Source: Gammaproteobacteria bacterium (GTDB lineage: Bacteria; Pseudomonadota; Gammaproteobacteria; Eutrophobiales; Eutrophobiaceae). From it: 64,000 nt of DNA. Position numbers and translations under genes: made by a program. Positions 32,001 through 51,100 of this stretch are shown here, piece after piece. Positions within the stretch are counted from its first letter, which is position 1, and every line of letters begins with the position of its first letter. The stretch is taken from contig OZ250183.1 in NCBI GenBank assembly GCA_965238225.1, positions 1,376,001-1,440,000 on the forward strand, read 5' to 3'. The notes under the pieces are model-generated. The model was given only the letters and a program-made list of their open reading frames with translations. It had not been told where the DNA came from and made no database searches.

Positions 32001-32246
32001 AACCACTACTTGCGCACGCCATGTGGTTGGGGTTACGCTGGCATCAATAACAGGTGTATTGGTAGTAACACTGTTTACTGTTACAGAGTTTAGTGTCTCA
32101 CCTGTCGCAAGGGTGCCGGTGATTTCTGGGGTGGTATCGTTGGTTGTTAGTGCGTCCACCGTGACAGCTTGAGCTGCCTGTGTAGAAAGACCTGTAAAAA
32201 GACCTACAAGAAAAAAGACCAGTGCCTTACTGTTCAGTATTACCAT
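29004..32246 (-). CDS. Array gene B: autotransporter adhesin with Ig-like passenger and C-terminal beta-barrel (~1080 aa)
   Basis: Signal peptide ending AAQA; Thr-rich Ig-like repeats (NDTTPTITGT, DLAGN); C-terminal domain with amphipathic strands ending FDFELGLEF; RBS favours ATG at 32246. Confidence 0.88.
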   Translation of the reverse strand: MVILNSKALVFFLVGLFTGLSTQAAQAVTVDALTTNDTTPEITGTLATGETLNSVTVNSVTTNTPVIDASVTPTTWRAQVVVFNALNEGTYQVVATITDAGGSVLTDSSTDELTIDTTAPTATLAYTYGTGTNTATLVKAGDSITITAAFSESIKVNPIPQITGTGVESIAAANMTRVNTTTYTYDWTVGTGDGAQSFTLSTGQDLAGNAITTTPITGTTITVDNTVPIPTVDALSSNDTTPTITGTTDTGVGLGTGESLSVTLNSITYTPTVATDGTWSFTVASANALADGSYEVSATFTDAAGNIGTDTTSNELAIDSTAPALVFYSFGDGRQYLISEQATNVATDANIILTFDEVVMKVAGGAGSIILHTSAVISETIPSADPRITVVGNTVSINPSVDFVASESVTVSAGSSSFSDLAGNIVPNLPSIFTFTVSATAPTHTVQDTVFASAVSAMANEKVTITSSGNAGNSIWFAPEGTQNFTEGATITRAAGNATSIYAPQASGTYRLFVQDRAGNVSSPSNAVLTVTADTTSPSLTTYAFGRDNTSYALTDSATEVPANVDIILNFSERVSAGTGTITLTPTGGTAIALDVTGAQVTANDTDAVTINPSNNLDLSTEYTVNIPAGAFVDRASRDATQATFSFSVSATPPTPDPATVKDVVSGVNMQADIAVDWTKTSVTTITNRMNWLRRHKGSNNLSHQGITLNFAHPTLDALFKAEYKANNPKENSLVSQARLANMARTLANNTKHNADHSTSVFAALKQELSDRAANEFAKLAHNTLDNTLGHLTALNPLSGNSISDTWAIWTAGNITLGDYDATTTTSAQDSFSQNISLGVDRYTANDKQLLGVAVSLGTGDVEIGNNDTTLNSDAISFAVYTALDLHNNTAIEGMIGVGGINVDTKRRGNDNILLTGSRDIKQIFASLTFRGKFQEEDINLSPYGRVNVSYSSLGDFAESGSDFALTYNKQDINTLVLYTGLDIDGLIELNQGALRPFGVAEYGVDISPSSDAELYYLSDPTRQIYTLSTDGSATHNLKFGIGVEYKAQTGAYGSVGYERTEIIDSGHTDSFDFELGLEF

Positions 32247-32337
32247 AACATTCCTCAACCTTGCGATTACAGCAAACATCTTGTTGTTAAGAATGTTAAT
32301 GATTAAAAGATGCAGTATTACACTAAAACTCTAAAGT

Positions 32338-35300
32338 CTAAAACTCAAGACCAAGCTCTAAGTCAAAACTGTCGGTGTGCCCTGAGTCTATGATCTCAGT
32401 GCGCTCATAGCCTACTGAACCATAAGCGCCGGTTTGGGATTTATATTCAACACCGATACCAAACTTCAAGTTGTGTGTGGCACTGCCGTCTGTAGACAGG
32501 GTGTATATTTGTCTGGTTGGGTCGCTCAGGTAATAAAGTTCAGCGTCAGAGCTCGGACTTATATCAGCACCGTATTCAACCACACCGAAGGGTCTCAGTG
32601 CGCCTTGATTAAGCTCAATGAGATAGTCTACATCAAGCCCTGTGTACAGCACTAGGTTATTTATATCTTGTTTGTTGTAAGTCAGTGCAAAGTCTGAACC
32701 AGATTCAGCAAAGTCTCCCAGACTGCTGTATGACACATTAACCCTGCCATAGGGAGAGAGGTTTATATCCTTTTGTTGGAATTTACCTCTGAAGGTCAAG
32801 GATGCAAATATTTGTTTTATGTCACGGCTGCCTGTGAGTAATATATTGTCATTGCCACGGCGTTTTGTATCTACATTAATGCCGCCTACACCTATCATAC
32901 CTTCAATGGCAGTGTTGTTGTGCAAGTCTAGGGCAGTGTAGACCGCAAAGCTTATGGCATCTGAATTCAGTGTTGTGTCGTTATTGCCAATCTCAACATC
33001 ACCTGTACCTAAGCTTACGGCAACACCTAAAAGCTGTTTGTCATTGGCTGTATATCTGTCTACGCCTAAGGAGATGTTTTGTGAGAAGCTGTCCTGTGCA
33101 GATGTGGTGGTGGTTGCATCATAATCACCTAGGGTGATATTGCCGGCAGTCCAGATTGCCCAAGTATCACTAATACTATCACTGATGCTGTTACCGCTTA
33201 AGGGGTTTAGGGCAGTCAGATGGCCTAAAGTATTGTCTAAAGTATTGTGTGCCAGTTTGGCAAATTCATTGGCGGCACGGTCGCTAAGCTCTTGTTTGAG
33301 CGCAGCAAACACAGACGTGCTGTGGTCGGCGTTATGCTTGGTATTATTGGCCAGTGTTCTTGCCATGTTGGCAAGGCGTGCTTGGCTCACAAGGCTATTT
33401 TCTTTGGGATTATTGGCCTTATATTCTGCCTTAAAGAGTGCGTCCAGTGTCGGATGTGCAAAGTTTAAGGTTATGCCTTGATGAGACAGGTTGTTGCTGC
33501 CTTTGTGGCGGCGTAACCAGTTCATGCGGTTGGTAATGGTGGTTACTGAGGTCTTAGTCCAGTCGACTGCTATATCAGCTTGCATGTTAACACCAGACAC
33601 AACATCTTTAACTGTTGCAGGGTCAGGGGTGGGCGGTGTTGCTGATACGCTAAAGCTAAAAGTAGCTTGCGTGGCATCACGGCTTGCGCGGTCTACAAAT
33701 GCGCCTACTGGGATATTGACTGTGTATTCTGCACTCAGATCAAGATTGTTGGACGGGTTGATGGTGACAGCATCAGTATCATTGGCTGTGACTTGTGCAC
33801 CTGTCACATCAAGTGCTATGGCGGTGCCGCCTGTAGGGGTTAAGGTGATGGTACCTGTGCCGGCGCTGACTCGCTCACTGAAATTCAGGATAATATCAAC
33901 ATTGGCTGGCACCTCTGTGGCACTGTCTGTAAGTGCATAGCTTGTATTGTCTCTACCAAATGCGTAGGTAGTTAAGCTCGGACTGGTGGTATCAGCGGTG
34001 ACAGTCAAGACAGCATTCGATGGGCTGGAAACATTACCAGCGCGGTCTTGTACAAATAATCTATAAGTGCCACTGGCTTGTGGTGCGTAAATAGCAGTAG
34101 CATTGCCCGCAGCACGGGTGATGGTGGTGCCTTCTGTAAAGTTTTGCGTAGATTGCGGTGCAAACCAGATGATATCATCAGCATTACCAGAACCTACAAC
34201 AGTAATCGCTGCGTTAGCCATGCCACTGACCGCACTGGCAAAGACTGTGTCTTGATCGGTGGGGGTAGCCGCTGTGGCTGATGTACCAAAGCGAAGGACT
34301 TCCACTATAGATGTAAAAGCGTTGCCGGCAAGGTCAGAGAATAATGATCCGATACTTAATACAACATCTCTACCCGCAATAAAGTTGATGCTTGGATCGA
34401 TGGTCACTGTATTGCCAGCCACTGTGATGCGTGGGTCTGCGCTGAGAATGGTTTCAGCTATAGGTGTAAGACCTAATGATACGCCTGATTGAATTAGGAT
34501 ATCGCCGCCCGCCACTTTCATGACTGCCTCATTAAAGGTCAAGATAATATTGGCATTGGTGGCAGCATTTGTTACTGTTTCGCTCTCGGTAAATAGATAT
34601 TGCCTGCCATCTCCGATGGCATAGGAGACCAATGCTGGTCTTGTGCCGTCAATGGCGAGTTCGTTGCTGGTGGTGTCTGTGCCGATATTGCCAGTTGCAT
34701 CGGTGAATGTTGCACTAACCTCATAGCTGCCATCAGCAAGTGCATTGGCACTTGCCACTGTAAAAGACCAAGTGCCATCTGTAGCAACAGTGGGTGTGTA
34801 GGTAACAGCGTTTAGCGTCACAGAAAGGCTTTCTCCTGTGCCAAGTGCTATGCCTGTGTCTGTTGTGCCGGTGATGGTTGGGGTGGTGTCATTGGTGGCT
34901 AGTGCGTCAACTGTGGGTACAGGCGCTGTGTTGTCTATGGTAATGGTGGTCCCTGCGGTAGGGGTTGCGGTGATGGTGTTGCCTGCTAAGTCTGTGCCTG
35001 TGCTTAGGGTGAAGCTTTGTGCACCATCACCTGCGCCTACTGTCCAGTCATAGTTATAGGTTGTTGCATTGTGTTTTGTCATGTTGGCGGCAGCAATGTT
35101 CTCTACACCAGAGCCTGTGATTTGCATGACAGGGCTATCTGCCATGGGCTCGTCGAATTTGGCATTAACAATTATGGCATCCCCTGCTTTTACGACACTG
35201 ACAATGATATTACCGCCAGTTTGTTTCAAGTAATAGCGCAGGTAGGCTGTGGGGGCTGTATTGTCTACGCTTAAGGTGGCGGTTGATGGGCTAGAGACAT

Positions 35301-37819
35301 TGCCTACGCTGTCTTGTATAAATAATTTATAGTCGCCTGTGGTTGTGGGGGCTGTAATTGAAGTGGCAGTGCCTGTGGCACGGGTGATGGTGTTGCCTAT
35401 GACAAAGTTTGTGGTGCCTGCTGGGGCAAACCAAACGCTGTTACTTGCATCGCCCGAGCTTGTCGATGGGGACTGTCGCACTGCCGGCAACAGCCCTGCT
35501 GGTAGCAAAGACTGTGTTTTGATTGGTGGGCGCTTGTGTGTCTACGCTTAAGCTCGCGGTTGATGGGCTAGAGACATTACCTGCGCTGTCTTGTACAAAT
35601 AATTTATAGTCGCCTGCTGTTGCAGGGGCTGCAATTGAAGTGGCAGTGCCTGTGGCGCGGGTGATGGTGTTGCCTGCAACAAAGTTTGTGGTGCCTGTTG
35701 GGGCAAACCAAACGCTGTTACTGGCTACGCCTGAGCTTATGATGGGGACTGTCGCACTGCCGGCAACAGCCCTGATATTAGAATTAAAGACTGTGTTTTG
35801 ATTGCTGGGGCTTAAGTTGTCTACGGTGATGCTGGCACCAGATGTGGGGGTTGCGGTGACTGTATTGCCTGTTAAGTCTTGCCCTTGGCTTAAAGTGAAT
35901 GTTTGTGTGCCATCGCCAGTACCGACTGTCCAAGCATAGGTGTAGGTTGTTGCATTGACCCTTGTCATGGTGGCGGCAGAGACAGTATGTGCGCCAGTGC
36001 CGGCAATGCGCATGGCAGGGCTACCTTTCATAGACTCAGAAAAGGCAGCAGTGATGGTGATGTTGGTGCCTTGGTTTACCTGTGTGGCAGTATTAGTGCT
36101 TGTGCCATAGGTATAAGCAAGGGTGGCTGTGGGGGCTGTGTTGTCTACGATGATGCTGGCACCTGAGACAGGGGTCGCGGTGATGGTATTGCCTGCTAAG
36201 TCTGTGCCGTCGCTTAGGGTGAATGTTTGTGTGCCATCACCAGTACCGACTGTCCAAACATAGGTATAGCTTGTTGCATCAACCCTTGTCATGTTGGCGG
36301 CAGAGACAGTATGTGCACCAGTGCCTGTAATCTGCGGGATAGGGAATAATGCTATGTCCTCATTAAAGTCAGCAGTGATGGTGATGCTGGTGCCTTGGCT
36401 TACGCGTGTGGCAGTATTAGTGCTTGTACCATAGGCATAAGTAAGGATGGTTATCGGGCTTAGGTTGTCTACGGTTAAGGTGGCCGTTGATGGGCTAGAA
36501 ACATTGCCTACGCTGTCTTGTACAAATAATTTATAGTCGCCTGCTGTTGCAGGGGCTGTAATCGAAGTGGCAGTGCCGCTTGCAGCGCGGGTTATGGTGC
36601 TACTTGCACTAAAGTTTGTAGTGGTGGCTGGGGCAAACCAAACGCTGTTACTGGCTACGCCTGAGCTTATGATGGGGACTGTCGCACTGCCGGCAACAGC
36701 CCTGCTGGTAGCAAAGACTGTGTTTTGATTGGTGGGGGCTGTATTGTCTACAGTAATGCTGGCACCAGATGTGGGGGTTGCGGTGACTGTATTGCCTGTT
36801 AAGTCTTGCCCTTGGCTTAGAGTGAATGTTTGTGTGCCATCACCAGTACCGACTGTCCAAGCATAGGTATAGCTTGTTGCATTGACCCTTGTCATGTTGG
36901 TGGCAGAGACAGTATGTGCGCCAGTGCCGGCAATGCGCATGGCAGGGCTACCTTTCATAGACTCAGAAAAGGCAGCAGTGATGGTAATGCTATCTCCTGC
37001 TTTTACCCGTGTGGCAGTATTAGTGCTTGCGCCATAGGTATAAGCAAGGGTGGCTGTTGGGGCTGTGTTGTCTACGATGATGCTGGCACCTGAGACAGGG
37101 GTCGCGGTGATGGTATTGCCTGCTAAGTCTGTGCCGTCGCTTAGGGTGAATGTTTGTGTGCCATCATTTGCGCCTACTGTCCAAGCATAGGTATAGCTTG
37201 TTGCATCAACCCTTGTCATATCTGTTGCAGAGACAGTATGTGCGCCAGTGCCTGTAATCTGCGGGACAGGGAGTAATGCCATGTCCTCATTAAAGGTGGC
37301 GGTGATGGTGATGCTGGTGCCTTGGCTTACGCGCGTGGCAGTATTAGTACCCGTACCATAGGTATAAGCGAGGGTGGCTGTGGGGGTTGTGGTATCTATT
37401 GTAAGTGTTGCGTTGGTTGCACTGACAATGCCTCCTGCAAAGATTGTTGCAACGACTGCGTAAGTGCCTTCATTAAGTGCATTAAGAACCGCTACTTGCG
37501 CACGCCATGTGTTTGGGGTTACGCTGTTATCAATAACAGGTGTATTGGTAGCAACACCGTTTACCGTTACACCGACTAGTCCATCACCTGTCGCAAGTGT
37601 GCCGGTGATTGTTGGCGTTGTATCGTTGGTTGTTAGTGTATCAACCGTAATAGCTCGAGCCGCCTGTGCAGACAAAGCTGCAAGAAAAAAGACCAGCGCC
37701 AAGCGTTTTGTTAAGTTTATCATGCTGCCAAGACCCCCAAGCGTATTACTTGGAATCTTGTTTGTGGTGGTGCTTAATTTACCAATTAACTGCATAGGTT
37801 TACTCTTCAGTATTACCAT
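32338..37819 (-). pseudogene. Array gene C: autotransporter adhesin (~1826 aa if joined), split by a +1 frameshift near 35464 (ORF pieces 35441..37819 and 32338..35508)
   Basis: GAGCTTGTCGATGGGG at ~35456-71 versus GAGCTTATGATGGGG in two sister repeats. The N-part has the signal peptide; the C-part has the barrel ending FDLELGLEF. Confidence 0.85.
35520..37390. repeat. ~927-bp internal duplication (three-domain block) in gene C
   Basis: Shadow ORFs at 35903 and 36830 are near-identical at offset 927; the protein block repeats. Confidence 0.85.
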
Positions 37820-37946
37820 AACATTCCTCGAAATAGGCTGTAGTCGATGACTTTAAGAGTTCTGCACGACTTTGCATGACTTTGCGATTATAGCGAACAT
37901 CTGCTGTAGAATACAATACTTAAAGATGCAAGTATTACACTAAAGC

Positions 37947-38010
37947 CTAAAACTCCAAGGTCAACTTCTAAATCGAAACTGTCTGTATGTCTTGAGTTTA
38001 TGGCTTCAAT
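37947..38010 (-). pseudogene. Vestige of the last autotransporter beta-strand downstream of gene D
   Basis: Translates IEAINSRHTDSFDLEVDL(g)EF* versus TEIIDSGHTDSFDLELGLEF* in C; out of frame with D. Confidence 0.8.
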
Positions 38011-38056
38011 ACATGTAGCTTGCCGTGCCCACAGATCGTGTTCCTAGGTAGGTTGG

Positions 38057-41000
38057 TTATGTGTCGTACCGTCCTGCAAATGACTTGCAATTGTTTAAAT
38101 ACACTTCTATTGTGCCGCCGGATGTAGGTTCGCTCACCACCACATTGCCTGCTAAGTCTGTGCCTCGGCTTAGTGTGAATGTTTGTGTGCCACCATCAGT
38201 GTTCACCGCAGTCCAGAGATAGTAATAGGTTCTTACGTTGATAACTCTTGTCATGCTGGCAGCAGCAATGCTATCTACACCAGTGCCTGTAATTTGCGCG
38301 GTAGGGAATAATGCCATGTCCTCATTAAAGGTGGCGGTGATACGTACCACATCCCCTACGTTTACTCGAGTCACAGCCCTGTCATCTACAGAATAAGTGA
38401 GTACGGCAGTAGGAGACGTGGTATCTTTTACTGTAATTGTAGCACCAGATGTAGGTTCGCTAACTACCATATTACCAAATAAGTCCATGGCATGGCTTAG
38501 TGTAAATGCCTGTATGCCACCACCTGTGCCTACTGTCCATTCATAAATGAATGTTTGTATATAGGCGTAGGGCCATCTATCTAGATCTGCCCATGCCATG
38601 TTTGTTGCCGGAATGTTATTTGCACCAGTGCCTGTGATTTTTATGCCATCACTACCTTCCGTGATATCTACTACCAATTCACTGAAGGTAGCAACAACGG
38701 TGACGACATCCCCTGCTGTTACTTGACTTACAGGAGTACCATAGGGACCATCTATGAAATAACGGAGTCCAACTGTTGGGTTTGTAGTATCTTTTTTTGA
38801 ATTAAAGCCAAACGTTGTGAAGCCGAAAGAGTTGCCTGTAAGATCATCAAATGCTGTCGCTTGAATATTCACTTGAATATATTCACCATTCTGCCTATCA
38901 AAGGGGATTAATGGGTCAATGGTGAGTGTATTAGTACCATAACCTGTGATCTGTCTGACGGATGCGTTGAGGTCTTCGAGGGTGGGGGGATACTTCAAGT
39001 TCACTTCTCTCCTGCTGCTGTGAATAATATGGACATTACCTGAACCTTTGGCGACTGGCTCATCAAAGATCAGAACAATATTGTTGAATGCAGCAACACC
39101 TGTTGCACCATCTGCAGGTGAGTGTGATACAAGTGTCGGCGCTATGGTATCTATCATAAGTTCGTTTGTTGTAGTGTCTGCGCCAGTGTCACCTGCTGCA
39201 TCAGTGATTGTTGCAGTGATGTCGTAAGTGCCATCAGCAAGTGTATTGGCTGTCAAACTCCATGTGCCATCTGTAGCAACAGTGGGTGTATAGGAAACAG
39301 AGTATATTTCTACAGAAAGGGTTTCGCTTGAACTAAGTGCTGTGCCTGTGCCTGTAGTGCCTGTGATTGTTGGTGTTGGGTCATTGGTTTCTTGTGTATT
39401 AACCGTGGGTGTAGACTTAGCAGCATTATTATTCACTGTAATGGTGACACTAGATGTGGGTTCCATCACATTACCTGCTAAGTCTGTGCCTTGACTTAGT
39501 ATGAATTTTTGTTCGCCATGGGCATCACCTACTGTCCAAAAATAGTAATAGGTTGTTGCGTTGAATTTTGTCATGTTGGTGGTGGCAGTAGGATCTACGC
39601 CAGTACCTGTAATTTGCATGGCAGGCGTATCTGCTATGTCCTCACTAAACGTAGCATTGACAATGATGACATCCCCTGCTTTTACTTCAGTAAAACCGTA
39701 ACTAATGCCGTTTATTCTTTTGTAAGAACGGACATCGGCTGTAGGGGCTATGGTATCTTTTATGGTAAGTTCATTTGTTGTAGTGTCTGTGCTGATATTA
39801 CCTGCTGCATTTGTGATTGTTGCAATGACGTTATAGGTGCCATCAACAAGTGGTGTATTGGCTGTAAAAGACCATGTGCCATCTGTAGCAACAGTGGGTG
39901 TATAGCTTGTGCCATCTAACGCTACAGAAAGGGTTTCTCCTGTAGTAAGTGCTATGCCTGTGCCCGTAGTGCCTGTGATGACAGGGGTTGTGTCATTGCT
40001 GGTTTGTGCATTAACCGTGGGTGTCGCAGGGGCTATGTTATCCACTGTAATTGTGGCAGATGCAGGTGTTATTACATTGCCTGCTAAGTCTGTGCCTTGG
40101 CTTAAGCGAAATGTTTGTGTGCCATCACCTGTGCCTACTGTCCAAAAATAGCGAAAGGTTCTATTGCTATATCTTATCATATCGGTGGTAGCAATAAAAT
40201 TTACCCCCGTGCCTGTGATTTGTATGGGAGGACTATCTGCTATGTCCTTATTGAATTCGGCATTGATAATGATGACATCCCCTGCTTTTACCTTAGAAAA
40301 CTCGGTAAGACCGTAACTAATGCCGTTTATACTGAGGTAAGCATGAACATCGGCTGTAGGGGCTGTGGTGTCTATGGTAAGTTCGTTTGATGTAGTGTCT
40401 GTGCTGATATTGCCTGTTGCATCTGTGAATGTTGCAACGACTTCGTAGGTTCCGCTGGTAAGTGCATTAGCATTACTTACTGTAAAAGACCATGTGCCAT
40501 CTGTAGCAACAGTAGGTGTGTAGCTTGTGCCATCTAACGCTACAGAAAGGGTTTCTCCTGTAGTAAGTGCGCTACCTGTGCCTGTTGTGCCTGTGATGAT
40601 AGGGGTTGTGTCATTGCTGGTTTGTGCATTAACCGTGGGTGTCGTAACAGGGGCTGTGGTATCTACGGTAAGCTCGTTTGATGTAGTATCTGTGCTGACA
40701 TTGCCTGCTGTGTCTGTGGCTGTTGCAGTGATGTCGTAAGTACCATCAGCAAGTGTATTTGCTGTAAAGTGCCATGTGCCATCTGTAGCAACAGTGGCTG
40801 TGTAGGTTTCACCATTTAAGGCAACAGAGAGTGTCTCACCTGTAAGAAGTGCGCTACCTGTGCCTGTTGTGCCTGTGATGACAGGTGTGCTGTTGTTGCT
40901 GGTTTGTGCATTAACCGTGGGTGTCGCAGGCGCTATGGTATCTACTGTAAGTTCGTTTGATGTAGTGTCTGTGCTGATATTGCCTGCTGCATCTGTGAAT

Positions 41001-42853
41001 GTTGCAACGACTTCGTAGGTTCCGCTGGTAAGTGCATTAGCATTACTTACTGTAAAAGACCATGTGCCATCTGTAGCAACAGTAGGTGTATAGGTTTCAC
41101 CATTTAAGGCAACAGAGAGTGTCTCACCTGTAAGAAGTGAGTTACCTGTGCCTGTTGTGCCTGTGATTTCAGGGGTTGTGTCATTGCTGGTTAGTGTATT
41201 GACTGTAGGGGTAGCAGGGGCTGTGGTGTCTATTATAAGCTCGTTTGATGTAGTGTCTGTGCTTACATTACCTGCTGTGTCTGTGACTGTTGCAGTGATG
41301 TCGTAAGTACCATCAGCAAGTGTATTGGCTGTAAAAGACCATGTGCCATCTGTAGCAACAGTGGGTGTGTAGGTTTCACCATTTAAGGTAATAGAGAGTG
41401 TCTCACCTGTAAGAAGTGAGTTACCTGTGCCTGTTGTGCCTGTGATGACAGGGGTTGTGTCATTGCTGGTTAGTGTATTAATCGTGGGTGTAGTAACAGG
41501 GGCTGTGCCTATCACTGTAATGGTGTTAGACGTGGTTTCGACAGTGTCCGTGCCTTGGTGGGTTAAAGTAAATGTTTGTATGCCAACAGCACCATCGTTG
41601 ATTGTCCATGAATAGTAATAGAGCTCTCCGAGACTATCACTAGAGTATCTCATCATACTGGTTGCAGGAAAGCTATGTGCGCCAGTACCTGTGATTTCTA
41701 TACTAGGACTATCTGCCCATACTATTCCTCCAAGGTCTGTGGCAATGACAAATGCAGTATTCCCTGCTTCTACTTGAGTAACAGGCTGACCATTCATCAA
41801 ATAAATGAGTGTAGCTTCGGGTGCTGTGGTATCTGTTGTTATGGTTGTAATGCTTATACTGATACCAGCATAAGCATTACCTGCGCTGTCTGTGAAAGCT
41901 GTGTTGGGGGCAGTAATGCTATAGCTGGTATTTGCCAACAGAATATTTGTTGGATCAATGGTAATTTTATTAGTACCTTCTCCTGTTACCTGTGTGCTTG
42001 TTATAGGAATATTTATAGCAGTACCACCTTGAGGTGCTAGGGTGATATTGCCTGTGCCTATGGTAATTTCTTCATTAAAGGTCAGCACAATATTACTGTC
42101 TAATGGAACATTAGTTGCATTATTTGCAGGTGTAAAGGATGTTAATGTCGGAGCTGTGTTGTCTACGGTAAGTTCGTTTGATGTAGTGTCTGTGCTGACA
42201 TTGCCTGTTGCATTAGTGAATGTTGCAGTGATGTTGTAAGTGCCATCAGCAAGTGTATTGGCTGTAAAAGACCATGTGCCATCTGTAGCAACAGTAGGTG
42301 TATAGGTTGTACCATTTAAGGTAATAGAGAGTGTCTCACCTGTAAGAAGTGCGCTACCTGTGCCTGTTGTGCCTGTGATGACAGGGGTTGGGTCATTGCT
42401 GGTTTGTGTATTAATCGTGGGTGTAGTAACAGGGGTTATGCCTATCACTGTAATGGTGTTAGACGTGGTTTCGACAGTGTCCGTGCCTTGGTGGGTTAAA
42501 GTAAATGTTTGTATGCCAATAGCACCATCGTTGATGATCCATGAATAGTAATAGATCTCTCCGAGACTATCACTAGAGTATCTCGTCATACTGGTTGCAG
42601 GAAAGCTATGTGCGCCAGTACCTGTGATTTCTATGCTAGGATTATCTGCCCATACTATATCCATGCATGAGTTTCTTCCAAGGTCTTTGGCAATGACAAA
42701 TACATTATTCCCTGCTTCTACTTGAGTAACAGGCTGACCATTCATCAAATAAATGAGCTTAGCTGTGAGTGCTGCCTGTGCTACCTGTGCAGAAAATCCT
42801 GCAAGGAGAAAGACCAGTGTGAGACGTTTTAGTAGATTAGCTTTGCCTAACAT
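38057..42853 (-). CDS. Array gene D: 1598-aa secreted Ig-like repeat protein without beta-barrel
   Basis: Signal peptide MLGKANLLKRL...AQVAQA; Big_13-like and Big_5-like repeats; ends NNCKSFAGRYDT*. Confidence 0.88.
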   Translation of the reverse strand: MLGKANLLKRLTLVFLLAGFSAQVAQAALTAKLIYLMNGQPVTQVEAGNNVFVIAKDLGRNSCMDIVWADNPSIEITGTGAHSFPATSMTRYSSDSLGEIYYYSWIINDGAIGIQTFTLTHQGTDTVETTSNTITVIGITPVTTPTINTQTSNDPTPVITGTTGTGSALLTGETLSITLNGTTYTPTVATDGTWSFTANTLADGTYNITATFTNATGNVSTDTTSNELTVDNTAPTLTSFTPANNATNVPLDSNIVLTFNEEITIGTGNITLAPQGGTAINIPITSTQVTGEGTNKITIDPTNILLANTSYSITAPNTAFTDSAGNAYAGISISITTITTDTTAPEATLIYLMNGQPVTQVEAGNTAFVIATDLGGIVWADSPSIEITGTGAHSFPATSMMRYSSDSLGELYYYSWTINDGAVGIQTFTLTHQGTDTVETTSNTITVIGTAPVTTPTINTLTSNDTTPVITGTTGTGNSLLTGETLSITLNGETYTPTVATDGTWSFTANTLADGTYDITATVTDTAGNVSTDTTSNELIIDTTAPATPTVNTLTSNDTTPEITGTTGTGNSLLTGETLSVALNGETYTPTVATDGTWSFTVSNANALTSGTYEVVATFTDAAGNISTDTTSNELTVDTIAPATPTVNAQTSNNSTPVITGTTGTGSALLTGETLSVALNGETYTATVATDGTWHFTANTLADGTYDITATATDTAGNVSTDTTSNELTVDTTAPVTTPTVNAQTSNDTTPIITGTTGTGSALTTGETLSVALDGTSYTPTVATDGTWSFTVSNANALTSGTYEVVATFTDATGNISTDTTSNELTIDTTAPTADVHAYLSINGISYGLTEFSKVKAGDVIIINAEFNKDIADSPPIQITGTGVNFIATTDMIRYSNRTFRYFWTVGTGDGTQTFRLSQGTDLAGNVITPASATITVDNIAPATPTVNAQTSNDTTPVITGTTGTGIALTTGETLSVALDGTSYTPTVATDGTWSFTANTPLVDGTYNVIATITNAAGNISTDTTTNELTIKDTIAPTADVRSYKRINGISYGFTEVKAGDVIIVNATFSEDIADTPAMQITGTGVDPTATTNMTKFNATTYYYFWTVGDAHGEQKFILSQGTDLAGNVMEPTSSVTITVNNNAAKSTPTVNTQETNDPTPTITGTTGTGTALSSSETLSVEIYSVSYTPTVATDGTWSLTANTLADGTYDITATITDAAGDTGADTTTNELMIDTIAPTLVSHSPADGATGVAAFNNIVLIFDEPVAKGSGNVHIIHSSRREVNLKYPPTLEDLNASVRQITGYGTNTLTIDPLIPFDRQNGEYIQVNIQATAFDDLTGNSFGFTTFGFNSKKDTTNPTVGLRYFIDGPYGTPVSQVTAGDVVTVVATFSELVVDITEGSDGIKITGTGANNIPATNMAWADLDRWPYAYIQTFIYEWTVGTGGGIQAFTLSHAMDLFGNMVVSEPTSGATITVKDTTSPTAVLTYSVDDRAVTRVNVGDVVRITATFNEDMALFPTAQITGTGVDSIAAASMTRVINVRTYYYLWTAVNTDGGTQTFTLSRGTDLAGNVVVSEPTSGGTIEVYLNNCKSFAGRYDT

Positions 42854-43251
42854 AACGTTAATACTCCGTCATCTTGTTTGCATTATACTTACACCTAAAA
42901 TTTATACCACTTAAATATCTAACTTAGATTAATTACACCTGATGATTCTATACCCATCTGCTGCATACTCATCTGCTGGTTGATTGCCAATTACTTGTTA
43001 GTATTGACCAATCCTTAACTGGCATAGATTTTAAATAATTTCAAGTGCCTTTTTAAACTGTGCTGCATCCTACAAAAATTCTTTTAGCTTGTTTTAAACC
43101 CTTAGTCTCGTTTTGGTTACAATAAGTTCCTAAAAGATAAAGAGGGCTACCCCAGATAAGTAGGTTATAGTTACCTTAAGGCATTGTTTTAACTGTTTTA
43201 ATTAGTTTAATTGCTTATTATGTGACAGCCCTTAATAGATCGATATTAAGC

Positions 43252-43316
43252 CTAAAAACTCCAAGGTCAACTTCTAAATCGAAACTGTCTGTGTGTCTTG
43301 AGTTTATGGCTTTAAT
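43252..43316 (-). pseudogene. Vestige of the last autotransporter beta-strand downstream of gene E
   Basis: Near-identical to 37947-38010 (IKAINSRHTDSFDLEVDL...). Confidence 0.8.
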
Positions 43317-44036
43317 ACATGTAGAGCTTGCTGTGCCCATAGATCGTGTTCCTAGGTAGATTGGTTATGTGTCGTACCGTCCTGCAAATGACTTGCAATT
43401 GTTTAAATCCACTTCTATTGTGCCGCCGGATGTAGGTTCGCTCACCACCACATTGCCTGCTGAGTCTTCGCCTCGGCTTAGTGTAAATGTTTGTGTGCCG
43501 CCATCAGTGCTCACCACAGTCCAGAGATAGTAATAGGTTCTTGCATTGGCTCTTGTCATGCTGGCAGCAGCAATGCTATCTACACCAGTGCCTGTAATTT
43601 GCGCGGTAGGGAATAATGCCATGTCCTCATTAAAGGTGGCGGTGATACGTACCACATCCCCTACGTTTACTCGAGTCACAGGACTTCCATCTACGGTATA
43701 GGTGAGTTCGGCTGTGGGCGCTGTGCTATCCACTATAATTGTAGTAGATGTGGATGCCATTACATTGCCTGCTAAGTCTGTGCCTTGGCTTAGTGTAAAT
43801 GTTTGTGTGCCATCACCTGTGCTTGCTGTCCAGAAATAGTGAAAGGTTCTATTACTATCTCTTGTCATATTGGTGGCAGCAATGGGCTCTAAACCGGTAC
43901 CTGTGATTTGTATGGGGGGCGTATCTACTATGTCCTCATTGAAGGTAGCAATAACAATCATGTTATCTCCTTGTTTTACTTGGGTGACAACAACAGCAAT
44001 ACCATTAATGCTTTTGTAATAAGTGAGTGTAGCGGT

Positions 44037-47000
44037 AGGGGCTGTGGTGTCTACGGTAAGTTCGTTTGATGTAGTATCTGTGCTGACATTGCCTGCTGTA
44101 TCTGTGGCTGTTGCAATGACGTTATAGGTGCCATCAGCAAGTGTATTGGCTGTAAAAGACCATGTGCCATCTGTAGCAACAGTGGGTGTGTAGCTTGTGC
44201 CATCTAACGCTACAGAAAGGGTTTCGCTTAAGCTAAGTGCTGTGCTTGCGCCTATTGTGCCTGTGATTTCAGGGGTTGTGTCATTGCTGGTTAGTGTATT
44301 GACTGTAGGGGTAGCAGGGGCTGTGGTGTCTACGGTAAGTTCGTTTGATGTAGTATCTGTGCTGACATTGCCTGCTGTATCTGTGGCTGTTGCAATGACG
44401 TTATAGGTGCCATCAGCAAGTGTATTGGCTGTAAAAGACCATGTGCCATCTGTAGCAACAGTGGGTGTGTAGCTTGTGCCATCTAACGCTACAGAAAGGG
44501 TTTCGCTTAAGCTAAGTGCTGTGCTTGCGCCTATTGTGCCTGTGATTTCAGGGGTTGTGTCATTGCTGGTTAGTGTATTGACTGTAGGGGTAGCAGGGGC
44601 TGTGGTGTCTACGGTAAGTTCGTTTGATGTAGTATCTGTGCTGACATTGCCTGCTGTATCTGTGGCTGTTGCAATGACGTTATAGGTGCCATCAGCAAGT
44701 GTATTGGCTGTAAAAGACCATGTGCCATCTGTAGCAACAGTGGGTGTGTAGCTTGTGCCATCTAACGCTACAGAAAGGGTTTCGCTTAAGCTAAGTGCTG
44801 TGCTTGCGCCTATTGTGCCTGTGATTTCAGGGGTTGTGTCATTGCTGGTTAGTGTATTGACTGTAGGGGTAGCAGGGGCTGTGGTGTCTACGGTAAGTTC
44901 GTTTGATGTAGTATCTGTGCTGACATTGCCTGCTGTATCTGTGGCTGTTGCAATGACGTTATAGGTGCCATCAGCAAGTGTATTGGCTGTAAAAGACCAT
45001 GTGCCATCTGTAGCAACAGTGGGTGTGTAGCTTGTGCCATCTAACGCTACAGAAAGGGTTTCGCTTAAGCTAAGTGCTGTGCTTGCGCCTATTGTGCCTG
45101 TGATTTCAGGGGTTGTGTCATTGCTGGTTAGTGTATTGACTGTAGGGGTAGCAGGGGCTGTGGTGTCTACGGTAAGTTCGTTTGATGTAGTATCTGTGCT
45201 GACATTGCCTGCTGTATCTGTGGCTGTTGCAATGACGTTATAGGTGCCATCAGCAAGTGTATTGGCTGTAAAAGACCATGTGCCATCTGTAGCAACAGTG
45301 GGTGTGTAGCTTGTGCCATCTAACGCTACAGAAAGGGTTTCGCTTAAGCTAAGTGCTGTGCTTGCGCCTATTGTGCCTGTGATTTCAGGGGTTGTGTCAT
45401 TGCTGGTTAGTGTATTGACTGTAGGGGTAGCAGGGGCTGTGGTGTCTACGGTAAGTTCGTTTGATGTAGTATCTGTGCTGACATTGCCTGCTGTATCTGT
45501 GGCTGTTGCAATGACGTTATAGGTGCCATCAGCAAGTGTATTGGCTGTAAAAGACCATGTGCCATCTGTAGCAACAGTGGGTGTGTAGCTTGTGCCATCT
45601 AACGCTACAGAAAGGGTTTCGCTTAAGCTAAGTGCTGTGCTTGCGCCTATTGTGCCTGTGATTTCAGGGGTTGTGTCATTGCTGGTTAGTGTATTGACTG
45701 TAGGGGTAGCAGGGGCTGTGGTGTCTACGGTAAGTTCGTTTGATGTAGTATCTGTGCTGACATTGCCTGCTGTATCTGTGGCTGTTGCAATGACGTTATA
45801 GGTGCCATCAGCAAGTGTATTGGCTGTAAAAGACCATGTGCCATCTGTAGCAACAGTGGGTGTGTAGCTTGTGCCATCTAACGCTACAGAAAGGGTTTCG
45901 CTTAAGCTAAGTGCTGTGCTTGCGCCTATTGTGCCTGTGATTTCAGGGGTTGTGTCATTGCTGGTTAGTGTATTGACTGTAGGGGTAGCAGGGGCTGTGG
46001 TGTCTACGGTAAGTTCGTTTGATGTAGTATCTGTGCTGACATTGCCTGCTGTATCTGTGGCTGTTGCAATGACGTTATAGGTGCCATCAGCAAGTGTATT
46101 GGCTGTAAAAGACCATGTGCCATCTGTAGCAACAGTGGGTGTGTAGCTTGTGCCATCTAACGCTACAGAAAGGGTTTCGCTTAAGCTAAGTGCTGTGCTT
46201 GCGCCTATTGTGCCTGTGATTTCAGGGGTTGTGTCATTGCTGGTTAGTGTATTGACTGTAGGGGTAGCAGGGGCTGTGGTGTCTACGGTAAGTTCGTTTG
46301 ATGTAGTATCTGTGCTGACATTGCCTGCTGTATCTGTGGCTGTTGCAATGACGTTATAGGTGCCATCAGCAAGTGTATTGGCTGTAAAAGACCATGTGCC
46401 ATCTGTAGCAACAGTGGGTGCAACAGTGGTGTAGCTTGTGCCATCTAACGCTACAGAAAGGGTTTCGCTTAAGCTAAGTGCTGTGCTTGCGCCTATTGTG
46501 CCTGTGATTTCAGGGGTTGTGTCATTGCTGGTTAGTGTATTGACTGTAGGGGTAGCAGGGGCTGTGGTGTCTACGGTAAGTTCGTTTGATGTAGTATCTG
46601 TGCTGACATTGCCTGCTGTATCTGTGGCTGTTGCAATGACGTTATAGGTGCCATCAGCAAGTGTATTGGCTGTAAAAGACCATGTGCCATCTGTAGCAAC
46701 AGTGGGTGTGTAGCTTGTGCCATCTAACGCTACAGAAAGGGTTTCGCTTAAGCTAAGTGCTGTGCTTGCGCCTATTGTGCCTGTGATTTCAGGGGTTGTG
46801 TCATTGCTGGTTAGTGTATTGACTGTAGGGGTAGCAGGGGCTGTGGTGTCTACGGTAAGTTCGTTTGATGTAGTATCTGTGCTGACATTGCCTGCTGTAT
46901 CTGTGGCTGTTGCAATGACGTTATAGGTGCCATCAGCAAGTGTATTGGCTGTAAAAGACCATGGCCATCTGTAGCAACAGTGGGTGTGTAGCTTGTGCCA

Positions 47001-47136
47001 TCTAACGCTACAGAAAGGGTTTCGCTTAAGCTAAGTGCTGTGCTTGCGCCTATTGTGCCTGTGATTTCAGGGGTTGTGTCATTGCTGGTTAGTGTATTGA
47101 CTGTAGGGGTAGCAGGGGCTGTGGTGTCTACGGTAA
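44037..47136. repeat. 279-bp (93-aa Ig-like domain) tandem repeat, 11 essentially identical copies
   Basis: Shadow ORFs recur from 44197 to 46995 with period 279; one interval is 288 (9-bp insertion) and one is 278 (1-bp deletion). Confidence 0.95.
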
Positions 47137-48110
47137 TGGTGGTAGATGTAGGTGTTATTACATTACCTGCTAAGTCTTCGCCTTGGCTTAGTGTGAATGT
47201 TTGTGTGCCATCACCTGTGCCTGTTGTCCAGAAATAGTGAAAGGTTCTATTACTATCTCTTGTCATATTGGTGGCAGCAATGGGCTCTAAACCAGTGCCT
47301 GTGATTTGCACGGGAGGCGTATTTGCCATGTCCTCACTAAACTCAGCACTGATGATGATGACATCCCCTGCGTTTGCTTCAGTAATACCGTAACTAATGC
47401 CGTTTATTCTTTTGTAATAAGAAAGTTCGACAGTGGGGGCTGTGGTATCCACGGTAACGATAATAACAGTGCTTACGGGTACCACCGCATTACCTGCTAA
47501 GTCTTCGCCTTGGCTTAGTGTGAATGTTTGTGTGCGACCATCACCTATGCCTGCTGTCCAGAAATAGTGAAAGGTTCTATCACTATCTCTTGTCATATTG
47601 GTGGCAGCAATGGGCTCTAAACCAGTGCCTGTGATTTGCACGGGAGGCGTATTTGCCATGTCCTCACTAAACTCAGCACTGATGATGATGACATCCCCTG
47701 CGTTTGCTTCAGTAATACCGTAACTAATGCCGTTTATTCTTTTGTAATAAGAAAGTTCGACAGTGGGGGCTGTGGTATCCGCGGTAACGATAATAATAGT
47801 GCTTACGGGTACCACCGCATTACCTGCTAAGTCTTCGCCTTGGCTTAGTGTGAATGTTTGTGTGCGGCCATCACTTATGCTTGCTGTCCAGAAATAGTGA
47901 AAGGTTCTATTACTATCTCTTGTCATATTGGTGGCAGCAATGGGCTCTAAACCAGTGCCTGTGATTTGCACGGGAGGACTATTTGCCATGTCCTCACTAA
48001 ACTCAGCACTGATGATGATGACATCCCCTGCGTTTGCTTCAGTAATACCGTAACTAATGCCGTTTATTCTTTTGTAATAAGAAAGTTCGACAGTAGGGGC
48101 TGTGGTATCT
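47130..48110. repeat. 330-bp (110-aa) tandem repeat, 3 copies, in gene E
   Basis: Shadow ORFs at 47306, 47636, 47966; YYKRINGISYGITE domain three times. Confidence 0.9.
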
Positions 48111-51100
48111 ATTATGGTAAGTTCGTTTGTTGTAGTGTCTGTACTGACATTGCCTGCTGCATCAGTAATTGTTGCAATGACGTTATGGATGCCACCGGTA
48201 AGTGGTGTATTGGCTGTAAAAGACCATGTGCCATCTGTAGCAACAGTGGGTGTGTAGGTTGTGCCATTTAAGGCAACAGAGAGTGTCTCACCTGTAAGAA
48301 GTGCGTTACCTGTGCCTGTTGTGCCTGTGATTACAGCAGGTGTGCTGGTGTTGCTGGTTAGTGTATTGACTGTGGGAGTCGCAGGGGCTGTGCTATCCAC
48401 TGTAATTGTAGCAGATGCGGGTTCCATCACATTGCCTGCTAAGTCTGTGCCGTTACTCAAAGAAAATGTTTGTATGCCATCACCAGTACCCACTGTCCAA
48501 GAATAGCGAAAGGTTCTATTGCTATATCTTATCATATCGGTGGTAGCAATAAAATTTACCCCCGTGCCTGTGATTTTCATGGGAGGACTATCTGCTATGT
48601 CCTCATTGAATTCGGTATTGATAATGATGACATCCCCTGCTTTTACCTTAGAAAACTCGGTAAGACCGTAACTAATGCCGTTTATACTGAGGTAAGAACG
48701 AACATCGGCTGTAGGGGCTGTGCTATCCACTGTAATTATAGTAGCTGTGGATGCCATCACATTGCCTGCTAAGTCTGTACCTTGGCTTAAGCGAAATGTT
48801 TGTATGCCATCACCTGTGCCTACTGTCCAGAAATAGTGAAAGGTTCTATTACTATCTCTTGTCATATTGGTGGCAGCAATAGGATCTACACCAGTACCTG
48901 TGATTTGTATGGGGGGCGTATCTCCTATGTCCTCATTGAATTCGGCACTGACAATGATGACATCCCCTACTTTTGCTTCGGTAAAACCATAACTAATGCC
49001 GTTTATTCTTTTGTAATAAGAAAGTTCGACAGTAGGGACTGTGGTGTCTACGGTAAGCTCGTTTGATGTAGTATCTGTGCTGACATTGCCTGCTGCATCT
49101 GTGGCTGTTGCAATGACGTTATAGGTGCCATCAGCAAGTGGTGTATTGGCTGTAAAAGACCATGTGCCATCTGTAGCAACAGTGGGTGTGTAGGTTGTAC
49201 CATTTAAGGCAACAGAGAGTGTCTCACCTGTAAGAAGTGCGTTACCTGTGCCTGTTGTGCCTGTGATTTGTGGTGTTGTGTCATTGCTGGTTAGTGTATT
49301 GACTGTAGGGGTAGCAGGGGCTGTGTTGTCTACGGTAATAGTGGTAGATGTAGGTGTTATTACATTACCTGCTAAGTCTGTGGCTTGGCTTAGTGTAAAT
49401 GTTTGTGTGCCATCGCCTGTGCCTACTGTCCATCTATGGTAATAGGTTATTGCATTGAATCTTGTCATGTTGGTGGTGGCGGTAGGATCTACGCCAGTGC
49501 CTGTGATTTGTATGGCAGGCGTATCTGCTATGTCCTCACTAAACGTAGCATTGACAATGATGACATCCCCTGCTTTTACCTTAGAAAACTCGGTAAGACC
49601 GTAACTAATGCCGTTTATACTGAGGTAAGAATGAACATCGGCTGTAGGGGCTGTGGTGTCTATGGTAAGTTCGTTTGATGTAGTGTCTGTGCTGATATTG
49701 CCTGCTGCATCTGTGAATGTTGCAACGACTTCGTAGGTTCCGCTGGTAAGTGCATTAGCATTACTTACTGTAAAAGACCATGTGCCATCTGTAGCAACAG
49801 TAGGTGTGTAGCTTGTGCCATCTAACGCTACAGAAAGGGTTTCTCCTGTAGTAAGTGCTATGCCTGTGCCTGTTGTGCCTGTGATGATAGGGGTTGTGTC
49901 ATTGCTGGTCAGTGTATTGACTGTAGGGGTAGCAGGGGCTGTGTTGTCTACGGTAATGGCAGCAGATGTAGATGCCATTACATTGCCTGCTAAGTCTGTG
50001 CCGTCGCTTAGTGTAAATGTTTGTGTGCCATCGCCTGTGCCTACTGTCCAAAAATAGTAATAGGTTATTGCATTGAATCTTGTCATGCTAGTTACAGCAA
50101 TGGGATCTACGCCAGTACCTGTGATCTGCATATGAGGCGTATATGCGATGTCCTCATTGAAGGTAGCAATAACAATCATGTTATCTCCTTGTTTTACTTG
50201 GGTGACAACAACAGCAATGCCATTAATGCTTTTGTAATAAGTGAGTGTAGCGGTAGGGGCTGTGGTATCTATGGTAAGTTCGTTTGATGTAGTGTCTGTA
50301 CTGACATTGCCTGCTGTGTCTGTGGCTGTTGCAATGACGTTATAGGTGCCACCAGTAAGTGCATTAGCATTACTTACTGTAAAAGACCATGTGCCATCTG
50401 TAGCAACAGTAGGTGTATAGGTTGTGCCATCTAACGCTACAGAAAAGGTTTCGCTTAAGCTAAGTGCTGTGCTTGTGCCTATTGTGCCTGTGATTTGTGG
50501 TGTTGTGTCATTGCTGGTTAGTGTATTGACTGTAGGGGTAGCAGGGGCTGTGTTGTCTACGGTAATGGCAGTAGATGTAGATGCCATTACATTGCCTGCT
50601 AAGTCTGTACCTTGGCTTAGTGTAAATGTTTGTGTGCCATCGCCTGTGCCTACTGTCAATCTATAGGTGTAGATTGTTGTATTGAATTTTGTCATGTTGG
50701 TGGCAGCAATGGGATTTACACCAGTACCTGTAATTTGCATGGCAGGCGTATCTGCTATAGGTTCGCTGAATCTAGCATGGACGATGACGGCATCCCCTGC
50801 TTTTACTGCAGGTATACGATAATTAGCTCCTATACGATAACTCATGCCGTTTACTCTTAGCCAAGAACGGACATCGGCTGTGGGGGCTGTGGTGTCTACG
50901 GTCAGCTCGTTTGATGTAGTGTCTGTGCTGACATTGCCTGCTGTGTCTGTGACTGTTGCAATGACGTTATAGGTGCCACCAGTAAGTGCATTAGCATTAC
51001 TTACTGTAAAAGACCATGTGCCATCTGTAGCAACAGTAGGTGTATAGGTTTCACCATTTAAGGCAACAGAGAGTGTCTCACCTGTAAGAAGTGTGCTACC

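What the first reader, a model, noticed from the sequence alone, without database searches (positions are those of the whole stretch)
37947..43400. Two giant paralogues lost their beta-barrel but keep a fossil last strand after an identical new C-terminus
Seen: D and E both end ...GGTIEV(Y/D)LNNCKSFAGRYDT*. About 46-48 nt later, out of frame, each has a degenerate copy of the barrel terminus (HTDSFDLEVDL.EF*). So the ancestor was an autotransporter, the barrel was deleted once, and the barrel-less gene then duplicated and kept expanding; D remains an intact 1598-codon frame. Inference: these Sec-exported passengers are still under selection. They may be exported another way, act with the B/C barrels in trans, use the new C-terminal Cys, or serve as donor cassettes.
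Basis: partly seen in the sequence, partly recalled or inferred. Interest (0 to 1): 0.7.

Follow-up and report, generated by a model that had tools for sequence, protein, structure and literature searches.

The report
Barrel-deleted autotransporter adhesin gene relics
Two giant surface-adhesin genes in a marine bacterium lost the membrane pore that normally exports them through one old deletion whose scar is still readable; this looks like ordinary decay and reshuffling of a repetitive gene family, not a new export system.

Summary
D (38057-42853, minus strand, 1598 codons) and E both end ...GGTIEV(Y/D)LNNCKSFAGRYDT*. 27 nt after each stop lies an 83-nt relic of the 3' end of an autotransporter barrel gene (nhmmer E 3e-11 and 1.5e-9). 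D and E share the junction, the stop and a +1 G insertion, so the barrel was lost once and the truncated 3' module was copied.

- 'E' is not a separate gene. F+E (53346-43365) is one ~3300-codon gene broken by two frameshifts.
- HTDSF starts 67/69 nt after the stop, not 46-48. In E it is in frame with the ORF.
- D is a mosaic. It shares a 1,295-nt exact tract and its upstream region with a paralogue that ends in a GH16 domain. A related strain's D-like gene ends GH16-type, not with this tail.

dN/dS for D versus E/F (0.65-0.83) is no lower than in barrel-bearing passengers (0.53-0.87), so selection on D is unproven. No RNA data were available.

Five of the ten family members I catalogued are broken or truncated.

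Best reading: gene-family decay plus gene conversion. Barrel-less members of autotransporter families are already described in Rickettsia (Sca4/Sca9), and barrel relics were seen elsewhere in this scan. Interest is modest.

The parts
38057..42853 (-). Gene D: intact 1598-codon ORF. It has a signal-peptide-like N-terminus, Big_13/Big_5/Big_3_3 Ig-like repeats and no PF03797 barrel.
38057..38101 (-). D's 14 new codons (YLNNCKSFAGRYDT) plus TAA, directly after the end of the last Ig domain. Origin not demonstrable.
   Evidence: No significant similarity to barrel genes except one colinear exact 12-mer in one paralogue (p about 0.002-0.03).
37947..38029 (-). D's barrel relic: the last ~83 nt (about 27 codons plus stop) of an autotransporter barrel gene. 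It carries a shared +1 G and a D-specific 2-nt deletion.
37820..37946 (-). Normal 'downstream of a barrel gene' intergenic region, shared with B and C. It holds a TTGTAT-18-TATAAT promoter-like site seen by eye and leads into gene C.
   Evidence: The promoter-like site was not listed by the consensus scan.
42854..43233 (-). D's upstream region, 92.7% identical to the upstream region of the GH16-ended paralogue. Only the last 87 nt are shared with F's upstream region. GGAG lies 10 nt before the ATG.
43365..53346 (-). Gene F+E: one gene of about 3,326 codons with a D-type signal peptide, broken by two frameshifts. It has the same truncated tail as D.
51118..51129 (-). First frameshift in F/E: a complex change, net +2 nt relative to sister repeats, not in a homopolymer.
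46959..46966 (-). Second frameshift in F/E: 1 nt missing relative to sister repeats, not in a homopolymer.
44037..47136 (-). 11.1 tandem copies of a 279-nt (93-codon Ig domain) unit, 99% identical. This is a recent expansion inside E.
43255..43337 (-). E's barrel relic, in frame with the E ORF. It carries the shared +1 G and an E-specific extra T. Homology to D and to barrel genes ends at 43248.
32338..37819 (-). Gene C: autotransporter with an intact PF03797 barrel and one +1 frameshift at about 35464.
29004..32279 (-). Gene B: intact 1091-codon autotransporter with Ig-like passenger, linker and PF03797 barrel.
28393..28899 (-). Gene A: a 168-codon 5' fragment of a B-type family member (signal region plus one Ig domain) at the end of the array.

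Best explanation
D and F/E are barrel-deleted members of a lineage-specific, actively recombining family of Ig-repeat type Va autotransporter adhesins.

History. One deletion in a gene that sat directly upstream of C removed the linker and almost the whole beta-barrel, at least about 400 codons. The cut ran from the end of an Ig domain to about 83 nt before the barrel's stop. It left 14 new codons, a TAA, a 27-nt spacer, the barrel's last ~27 codons and the normal downstream promoter region. This truncated 3' module (last Ig domain, new tail, relic) was then copied once, so it now ends two genes. The bodies of those genes kept changing by domain expansion and by gene conversion with paralogues.

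Function. Without a barrel the products cannot use the type Va route. F/E is already dead, with two frameshifts. D is still an open frame with a Sec-type signal and, if made, would be delivered to the periplasm. Its intactness owes at least partly to recent conversion from paralogues.

Most likely these are relics of gene-family decay that persist as recombination partners, not proteins selected for a new barrel-less role.

Shown: the relic, the single origin, the frameshifts, the mosaicism. Inferred: loss of surface display, lack of selection.
For: - Relic significance: nhmmer E 3.3e-11 and 1.5e-9; blastn to all six barrel ends.
- Single origin: the same junction, the same TAA and the same +1 G in both copies; 95% identity over 220 nt.
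- D's relic is contiguous with the usual downstream region of barrel genes, whereas E's homology stops 5 nt after the relic's stop.
- Pfam finds PF03797 in B and C but not in D, E or F.
- F/E has two frameshifts. C has one. A is a 5' stump. The 1.10-Mb and 1.57-Mb paralogues lie in at least 5 and at least 2 pieces. That makes 5 of the 10 family members I catalogued broken or truncated.
- dN/dS of D versus E/F is 0.65-0.83, against 0.53-0.87 for passengers and 0.19-0.53 for barrels of intact paralogues.
- D shares a 1,295-nt exact tract with the GH16-ended gene 150 kb away.
- The tail is not conserved: the D-like gene of a related strain (82% identical over 876 colinear residues) runs on into a GH16-type end.
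- Earlier scan notes report other decayed genes in this genome.
Against: - D is an uninterrupted 1598-codon frame. In a neutral simulation since the D/E split it stays free of new stops in only 0.5-9.5% of runs, and jointly free of frameshifts in 1e-3 or fewer.
- The 114-nt non-coding tail collected 2 indels between D and E. The 14,773 coding nt of D plus F/E hold only 2 frame-breaking ones (binomial p 3.5e-4).
- D codons 1101-1500 have no close paralogue (80% or less) that could have refreshed them, yet are open. Joint neutral probability is 0.17 down to below 1e-4, depending on the assumed indel rate.
- D keeps a start codon, GGAG and a 380-nt upstream region 93% identical to that of a paralogue.
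- The genome has two secretins, so another outer-membrane route is conceivable.
- Barrel-less Sca4 of Rickettsia is reported on the cell surface (PMC3415449, passages read).
Confidence: 0.6

Rival explanations
1. D is a functional barrel-less protein kept by selection. It is exported by Sec, then either retained in the periplasm, released through a type II system or vesicles, or carried out with the help of a paralogue's barrel. This is analogous to AT-domain-less Sca4/Sca9 of Rickettsia.
For: - The 1598-codon frame is open, which is improbable under strict neutrality since the D/E split.
- Frame-breaking indels are under-represented in coding DNA relative to the adjacent relic (p 3.5e-4).
- The start, GGAG and upstream region are intact.
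- Another D-type family member ends in a GH16-like domain instead of a barrel, so barrel-less architectures exist in the family.
- The genome has two secretin genes.
- Sca4 precedent (PMC3415449, passages).
Against: - The sister copy F/E, with the same tail, is broken twice.
- dN/dS is no lower than in ordinary passengers.
- A 1,295-nt exact conversion tract shows that D's body is being refreshed from paralogues.
- The 14-residue tail and its Cys are absent from the related strain's D-like gene.
- The GH16-ended paralogue is itself frameshifted.
- No expression data.
Confidence: 0.2
2. D and F/E serve mainly as sequence reservoirs. Their Ig-domain cassettes are copied by gene conversion into expressed family members, including barrel-bearing ones, to vary the adhesin repertoire. 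Their own products are irrelevant.
For: - The family is mosaic. D windows find their best matches in the GH16-type gene (100%), F (96%), E (98%) and the 1.10-Mb barrel gene (83%). F/E windows match D, the GH16-type gene and the 1.10-Mb gene at up to 98.7%.
- Exact shared runs with D are 1,295 nt (GH16-type), 181 nt (1.10-Mb barrel gene) and 153 nt (F/E).
Against: - D and F have complete 5' ends with start codon, signal peptide and upstream region, unlike classical promoterless silent cassettes.
- Exact runs shared with the intact barrel genes B, C, AT_1033723 and AT_1038784 are only 26-33 nt.
- The only barrel-bearing D-type partner is itself broken in at least 4 places.
- The direction of transfer is unknown.
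Confidence: 0.15
3. D was never itself an autotransporter. Recombination placed the body of a GH16-type (barrel-less) family gene next to the 3' stump of a destroyed barrel gene. On this view the relic records the death of a neighbour, not barrel loss by D's own ancestor.
For: - D's upstream 380 nt and first ~500 codons match the GH16-type gene at 91-100%.
- The related strain's gene, colinear with D 713-1584, continues into five more Ig domains and a GH16-type end.
- Similarity to that gene falls off after about D codon 1483, at a conserved domain boundary.
Against: - A gene with the D-type N-terminus and a barrel exists at 1.10 Mb. D's relic is marginally closest to that barrel, 74% against 70-71% for the other five.
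- F/E carries the same tail on a different body.
- Either way a barrel gene was truncated once at this spot. This rival changes the history, not the functional verdict.
Confidence: 0.25
4. The truncations or frameshifts are assembly artefacts of a repeat-rich region.
For: - The region is highly repetitive.
Against: - The junction occurs twice, with diverged copies (5 substitutions and 2 indels in 114 nt).
- None of the three frameshifts examined lies in a homopolymer.
- A 207-nt contig of public run X1 spans 37949-38153, covering stop, spacer and relic, in the E-like version. That run may come from the same sample as the assembly, so it is not independent.
Confidence: 0.03

Closest known systems
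Classical (type Va) autotransporters, Pfam PF03797 beta-domain (here: paralogues B, C and four others in the same genome)
   Same: D and F/E share the Ig-repeat passenger modules with these genes. Their signal-peptide type matches the 1.10-Mb barrel-bearing paralogue. The last ~83 nt of the barrel gene and its downstream region are also shared.
   Different: D and F/E have no linker and no barrel, so the defining export module is missing. From my own knowledge, an all-Ig-domain passenger is unusual for type Va, where beta-helices dominate.
Rickettsia Sca4 and Sca9: members of the Sca autotransporter paralogue family that lack the AT domain (PMC3415449, passages read)
   Same: These are barrel-less members of an autotransporter gene family whose paralogues occur as complete, fragmented or split genes. 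That paper mentions the same idea of export through another member's AT domain and found no support for it.
   Different: Sca4 is conserved across species, expressed, and reported on the surface and under positive selection. D's tail is confined to this genome as far as I could search, its sister copy is broken, and no expression data exist. No barrel relic is described for Sca4 in the passages I read.
Decayed autotransporter genes: Campylobacter capC/capD lineage-specific decay (PMC7168839, passages read) and Brucella type Va pseudogenisation (PMC8111173, search listing and abstract start only)
   Same: Autotransporter adhesin families that lose members by frameshift and deletion, with recombination between lineages.
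   Different: Those cases are mostly frameshifts or truncations within otherwise recognisable genes. Here a clean internal deletion removed only the export module, and the truncated end was then duplicated.
Barrel relics found earlier in this scan (e1-1206391, e1-113871; AI notes, unchecked)
   Same: A deletion that leaves the last codons of an autotransporter barrel joined to, or lying behind, another gene's body. Those notes read it as ordinary decay.
   Different: Those relics are longer (143 and 114 codons) and single-copy. Here the relic is 27 codons and present twice.

Membership tests
Type Va autotransporter (PF03797) | N-terminal Sec signal peptide | tested here: met
   By eye only, as no signal-peptide predictor was available. 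D and F begin with a basic n-region, a hydrophobic core and an AQA-A cleavage-like site.
Type Va autotransporter (PF03797) | C-terminal 12-stranded beta-barrel domain | tested here: not met
   Pfam scan at E<=0.01: PF03797 found in B (7.9e-29) and C (9e-30), but not in D, the E pieces or F.
Type Va autotransporter (PF03797) | Linker between passenger and barrel | tested here: not met
   blastn and nhmmer of the D and E tails against barrel genes align only the last 83 nt. Nothing matches the ~130-residue linker.
Type Va autotransporter (PF03797) | Descent from a barrel-bearing gene (relic of barrel DNA) | tested here: met
   nhmmer E 3.3e-11 and 1.5e-9. The relic is contiguous with the usual post-barrel intergenic region in D.
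Pseudogene / gene relic | Loss of an essential part relative to intact paralogues | tested here: met
   Barrel and linker are missing in D and F/E.
Pseudogene / gene relic | Disrupted reading frame | tested here: inconclusive
   F/E has two frameshifts. D has none in 1598 codons.
Pseudogene / gene relic | Neutral evolution | tested here: inconclusive
   dN/dS is 0.65-0.83, the same range as functional paralogues' passengers. The open-frame simulation argues against long neutrality, but gene conversion confounds it.
Pseudogene / gene relic | No expression | not testable with these tools
   No RNA run lists the stretch.
AT-domain-less members of autotransporter families (Sca4/Sca9-like) | Intact ORF of an autotransporter paralogue family without an AT domain | tested here: met
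   True for D. Not for F/E.
AT-domain-less members of autotransporter families (Sca4/Sca9-like) | Conserved across strains or species, and exported | tested here: inconclusive
   - 0 of 30 relatives' genomes match by DNA.
- 0 of 10 same-genus genomes and 1 weak hit in 120 family genomes by protein.
- The one close metagenomic relative has a different, GH16-type end.
- Export is not testable.
Silent donor cassettes for gene conversion | Long identical tracts shared with paralogues | tested here: met
   1,295-nt exact run with the GH16-type gene and 181 nt with the 1.10-Mb barrel gene.
Silent donor cassettes for gene conversion | No start or promoter of their own | tested here: not met
   D and F have ATG, GGAG, a signal peptide and a conserved upstream region.

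The most novel reading that the evidence does not exclude
D is a selected, working barrel-less passenger: a 1598-residue Ig-repeat protein that reaches the cell surface or medium without its own pore. It would do so either through a paralogue's barrel in trans or through the type II pathway. On this reading the family is caught in the act of switching export route, with barrel, GH16-type and tail-less ends on interchangeable passenger bodies.
Probability: 0.15. Interest if true: 0.6.

Novelty: new member of a known kind. Interest (0 to 1): 0.3.

Why it matters
This is a clean, datable example of how a repetitive adhesin family decays and reshuffles. A single deletion removed only the export module, its scar was duplicated, and the truncated genes went on exchanging kilobase tracts with paralogues.

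It warns annotators that a long open 'Ig-like domain protein' next to autotransporters may be an ex-autotransporter. If D were shown to be exported, it would give a tractable non-pathogen model for the unresolved question of how barrel-less members of autotransporter families (Sca4/Sca9) leave the cell.

Tried and rejected
- Extending the relic upstream into the 14 new codons. Local alignment with 500 shuffles of the 72-nt stretch against four barrel genes gave p 0.64-0.99. The exception is one exact colinear 12-mer in the 1045912 paralogue (p 0-0.002 adjacent, 0.02-0.03 over the whole C-terminal part). Global alignments gave mutually inconsistent placements. Origin left open.
- My eyeballed similarity of the P0005 tail to the autotransporter linker was not supported by blastp or by alignment to the D/E tail frames (p 0.2-0.99). 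tblastn instead showed it is a frameshifted read of the GH16-type end (E 1.3e-12).
- Orthologues in relatives. DNA search of 30 relatives found 0 matches. Protein search of 120 family genomes found 1 weak match, E 6.9e-5. The JGI metagenome protein scan had 153 pattern hits, none confirmed. An exact 22-mer of the tail in JGI metagenomes gave 0.
- Sequencing runs. No RNA holder is listed. The three runs laid (X1-X3, one study) gave only short Logan contigs. No piece spans the whole stretch and no barrel-bearing variant of the D end was seen. A contig with the E-like version spans the stop-relic junction. The run may be the assembly's own sample.
- The consensus promoter/terminator scan of 37700-43500 found no more sites than shuffles (8 against 12.6 expected; 6 against 4.4) and none behind D's stop.
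- One search failed because my coordinates were out of frame. I corrected them.
- Not done: structure prediction, complex prediction, a genome-contig scan, and a phylogeny of the 83-nt relic (too short to resolve; identities 69-74%).
Full report
LAYOUT. All relevant genes lie on the minus strand. In the direction of transcription the order is:
- a beta-helix/F5-F8 type C protein (56063-53670)
- F (53346-51106)
- E (to 43365)
- D (42853-38057)
- C (37819-32338)
- B (32279-29004)
- a 168-codon stump, A (28899-28393)

Pfam finds Ig-like repeats (Big_13, Big_5, Big_3_3) in all of them. It finds the autotransporter beta-domain PF03797 only in B (E 7.9e-29) and C (9e-30). The window is part of a complete 1.72-Mb single-contig genome that holds six PF03797 barrels in all: B, C and four elsewhere. 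A housekeeping protein's best named relatives are uncultured marine Gammaproteobacteria. The flanks are ordinary chromosome: uvrA, pyruvate kinase, rplM-rpsI and others.

THE OBSERVATION. D and E end with the same peptide...GGTIEV(Y/D)LNNCKSFAGRYDT*. I built a DNA profile from the last 900 nt of the six intact barrel genes. It matches D at 38029-37948 (profile positions 817-899, E 3.3e-11) and E at 43337-43255 (E 1.5e-9). Genome-wide blastn with the D end also hits the 3' ends of all six barrel genes (E 3e-18 to 5e-4). So the relic is real.

HTDSF begins 67 nt (D) and 69 nt (E) after the stop, not 46-48. D's relic is out of frame because of a D-specific 2-nt deletion. E's relic is in the same frame as the E ORF, separated from it only by the TAA, until a +1 G that both copies share just before the final E-F-stop. 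In D the relic runs straight into the intergenic region that normally follows a barrel gene and precedes the next family member. In E all homology stops 5 nt after the relic's stop.

WHAT 'E' IS. F ends where a sister repeat reads on, and the frame that holds E is open from 51136, upstream of F's stop. It continues F's interrupted Ig domain. A second break lies at about 46964. F+E is therefore one gene of about 3,326 codons with D's type of signal peptide and two frameshifts, neither in a homopolymer. It contains 11.1 copies of a 279-nt unit at 99% identity. C has one +1 frameshift at about 35464. A is a 5' stump.

Elsewhere in the genome, a gene with a D-type N-terminus and a barrel at 1.10-1.11 Mb lies in at least five pieces. 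A D-type gene at 1.57 Mb, which ends in a GH16-like domain instead of a barrel, lies in at least two. By my count 5 of the 10 family members are broken or truncated. Earlier notes of this scan describe other decayed genes in this genome.

HISTORY. D and E share the junction after the last Ig domain, the 14 new codons, the TAA, the spacer and the +1 G. They are 95% identical over the last 220 nt. One deletion followed by one copying event is the simplest account. Because only D's relic is contiguous with the normal post-barrel DNA, D's position is probably the original site.

The relic is 69-74% identical to intact barrel ends, which themselves range from 70 to 100%. It is marginally closest (74%) to the barrel of the 1.10-Mb D-type gene, but 83 nt cannot resolve this. 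I could not show that the 14 new codons derive from barrel sequence.

A third relic exists outside the window: about 150 nt of barrel 3' end, 99% identical to intact copies, at genome 1030098-1030183. It is preceded by unrelated AT-rich DNA and followed by the first gene of another array. Such stumps seem to mark the boundaries of rearrangements in this family.

MOSAICISM. D's upstream 380 nt is 92.7% identical to the upstream region of the GH16-type gene. D nt 196-1490 are identical, base for base over 1,295 nt, to that gene 150 kb away. Other D and F/E segments find their best matches in each other, in the GH16-type gene or in the 1.10-Mb gene, at 73-99%.

The only close relative outside the genome is a pair of metagenomic proteins, P0005 and P0065. 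P0065 is 82% identical to D 713-1584 over 876 colinear residues. It continues with five more Ig domains and ends like the GH16-type gene. P0005's odd tail is a frameshifted read of that end (tblastn E 1.3e-12). So D's body is not tied to this tail in other strains, and the tail with its Cys is not conserved.

SELECTION. dN/dS for D versus E/F is 0.65 (last 105 codons), 0.67 and 0.83 (two 5' blocks). Passengers of barrel-bearing paralogues give 0.53-0.87 and barrels give 0.19-0.53. The test does not discriminate.

Two results favour constraint:
- The 114-nt non-coding tail differs between D and E by 5 substitutions and 2 indels, while 14,773 coding nt carry only 2 frame-breaking indels (binomial p 3.5e-4).
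- In a neutral simulation D stays free of stops in only 0.5-9.5% of runs.

Both are weakened by the demonstrated gene conversion and by the recent repeat expansion. For D codons 1101-1500, which have no paralogue above 80% identity, the joint neutral probability ranges from 0.17 to below 1e-4 depending on the assumed indel rate. I regard selection on D as unproven, not excluded.

MECHANISM. What is shown: the type Va export module is gone; F/E is dead; D is an open frame with a start codon, GGAG and a signal-like N-terminus. What is inferred: D's product, if made, would cross the inner membrane and be stranded in the periplasm. It could leave only by another route (two secretin genes exist) or through a paralogue's barrel.

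The Rickettsia Sca family offers the closest parallel. It has complete, fragmented and split members, and AT-domain-less Sca4/Sca9. Export through another Sca's AT domain has been proposed for these two without supporting data (PMC3415449, passages). Decay of autotransporter families is well described (PMC7168839, passages; PMC8111173, listing only). This scan has already seen barrel relics in other genomes.

LIMITS.
- No RNA run lists the stretch. The laid contigs are short and possibly from the assembly's own sample.
- Relatives in the genome collection lack the family: 0 of 30 by DNA; 0 of 10 same-genus and 1 weak hit of 120 family genomes by protein. Two metagenome scans found nothing.
- The DNA behind P0005/P0065 could not be fetched.
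- Signal peptides and the intergenic promoter were judged by eye.

VERDICT. The single-deletion-then-copy history is supported. Continued selection or an alternative export route is not shown. This is a new example of a known kind: a barrel-deleted autotransporter relic inside a decaying, recombining adhesin family.

Noticed in passing
window 28393-28899 (-), repeats at 28779-28866: Gene A is a 168-codon 5' stump of a B-type family member. Its N-terminal extension holds 5.9 exact copies of a 15-nt unit encoding LIMSR. The same motif occurs in different copy numbers in the N-termini of the paralogues at genome 1033823 and 1030271, and not at all in B. This suggests a variable-length extended signal region.
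   Followed up: partly
genome G000:C1:1030098-1030183 (outside the window): A third barrel relic: about 150 nt of a barrel gene's 3' end, 99-100% identical over its last 86 nt to intact copies. It is preceded by unrelated AT-rich DNA and followed by the usual intergenic region and the first gene of a second autotransporter array.
   Followed up: partly
window 41364-42658 (D nt 196-1490) and genome 1568525-1577100: A 1,295-nt tract of D is identical base for base to a paralogue 150 kb away that ends in a GH16-like glycoside hydrolase domain instead of a barrel. This points to very recent gene conversion. That paralogue is itself split into 734- and 1942-codon pieces.
   Followed up: partly
genome 1102984-1113495 (outside the window): The only family member that combines the D-type N-terminus with a barrel lies in at least five reading-frame pieces (1500, 329, 386, 252 and 937 codons).
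   Followed up: no
window 28336-28403 and 53516-53640: Short tandem repeats at both ends of the array. One is a 17-nt unit x3.9 just behind A's stop. The others are 8/16/18-nt units (AACTATAC-type) in the region upstream of F.
   Followed up: no
window 53670-56063 (-): A 797-residue protein with right-handed beta-helix, GH141 insertion-like and F5/8 type C domains sits directly upstream of the adhesin array.
   Followed up: no
window 29004-37819 and paralogues: These type Va autotransporters have passengers built entirely of Ig-like domains (Big_13/Big_5/Big_3_3) rather than a beta-helix. From memory this is uncommon for classical autotransporters. The family was not found in 10 same-genus genomes.
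   Followed up: partly
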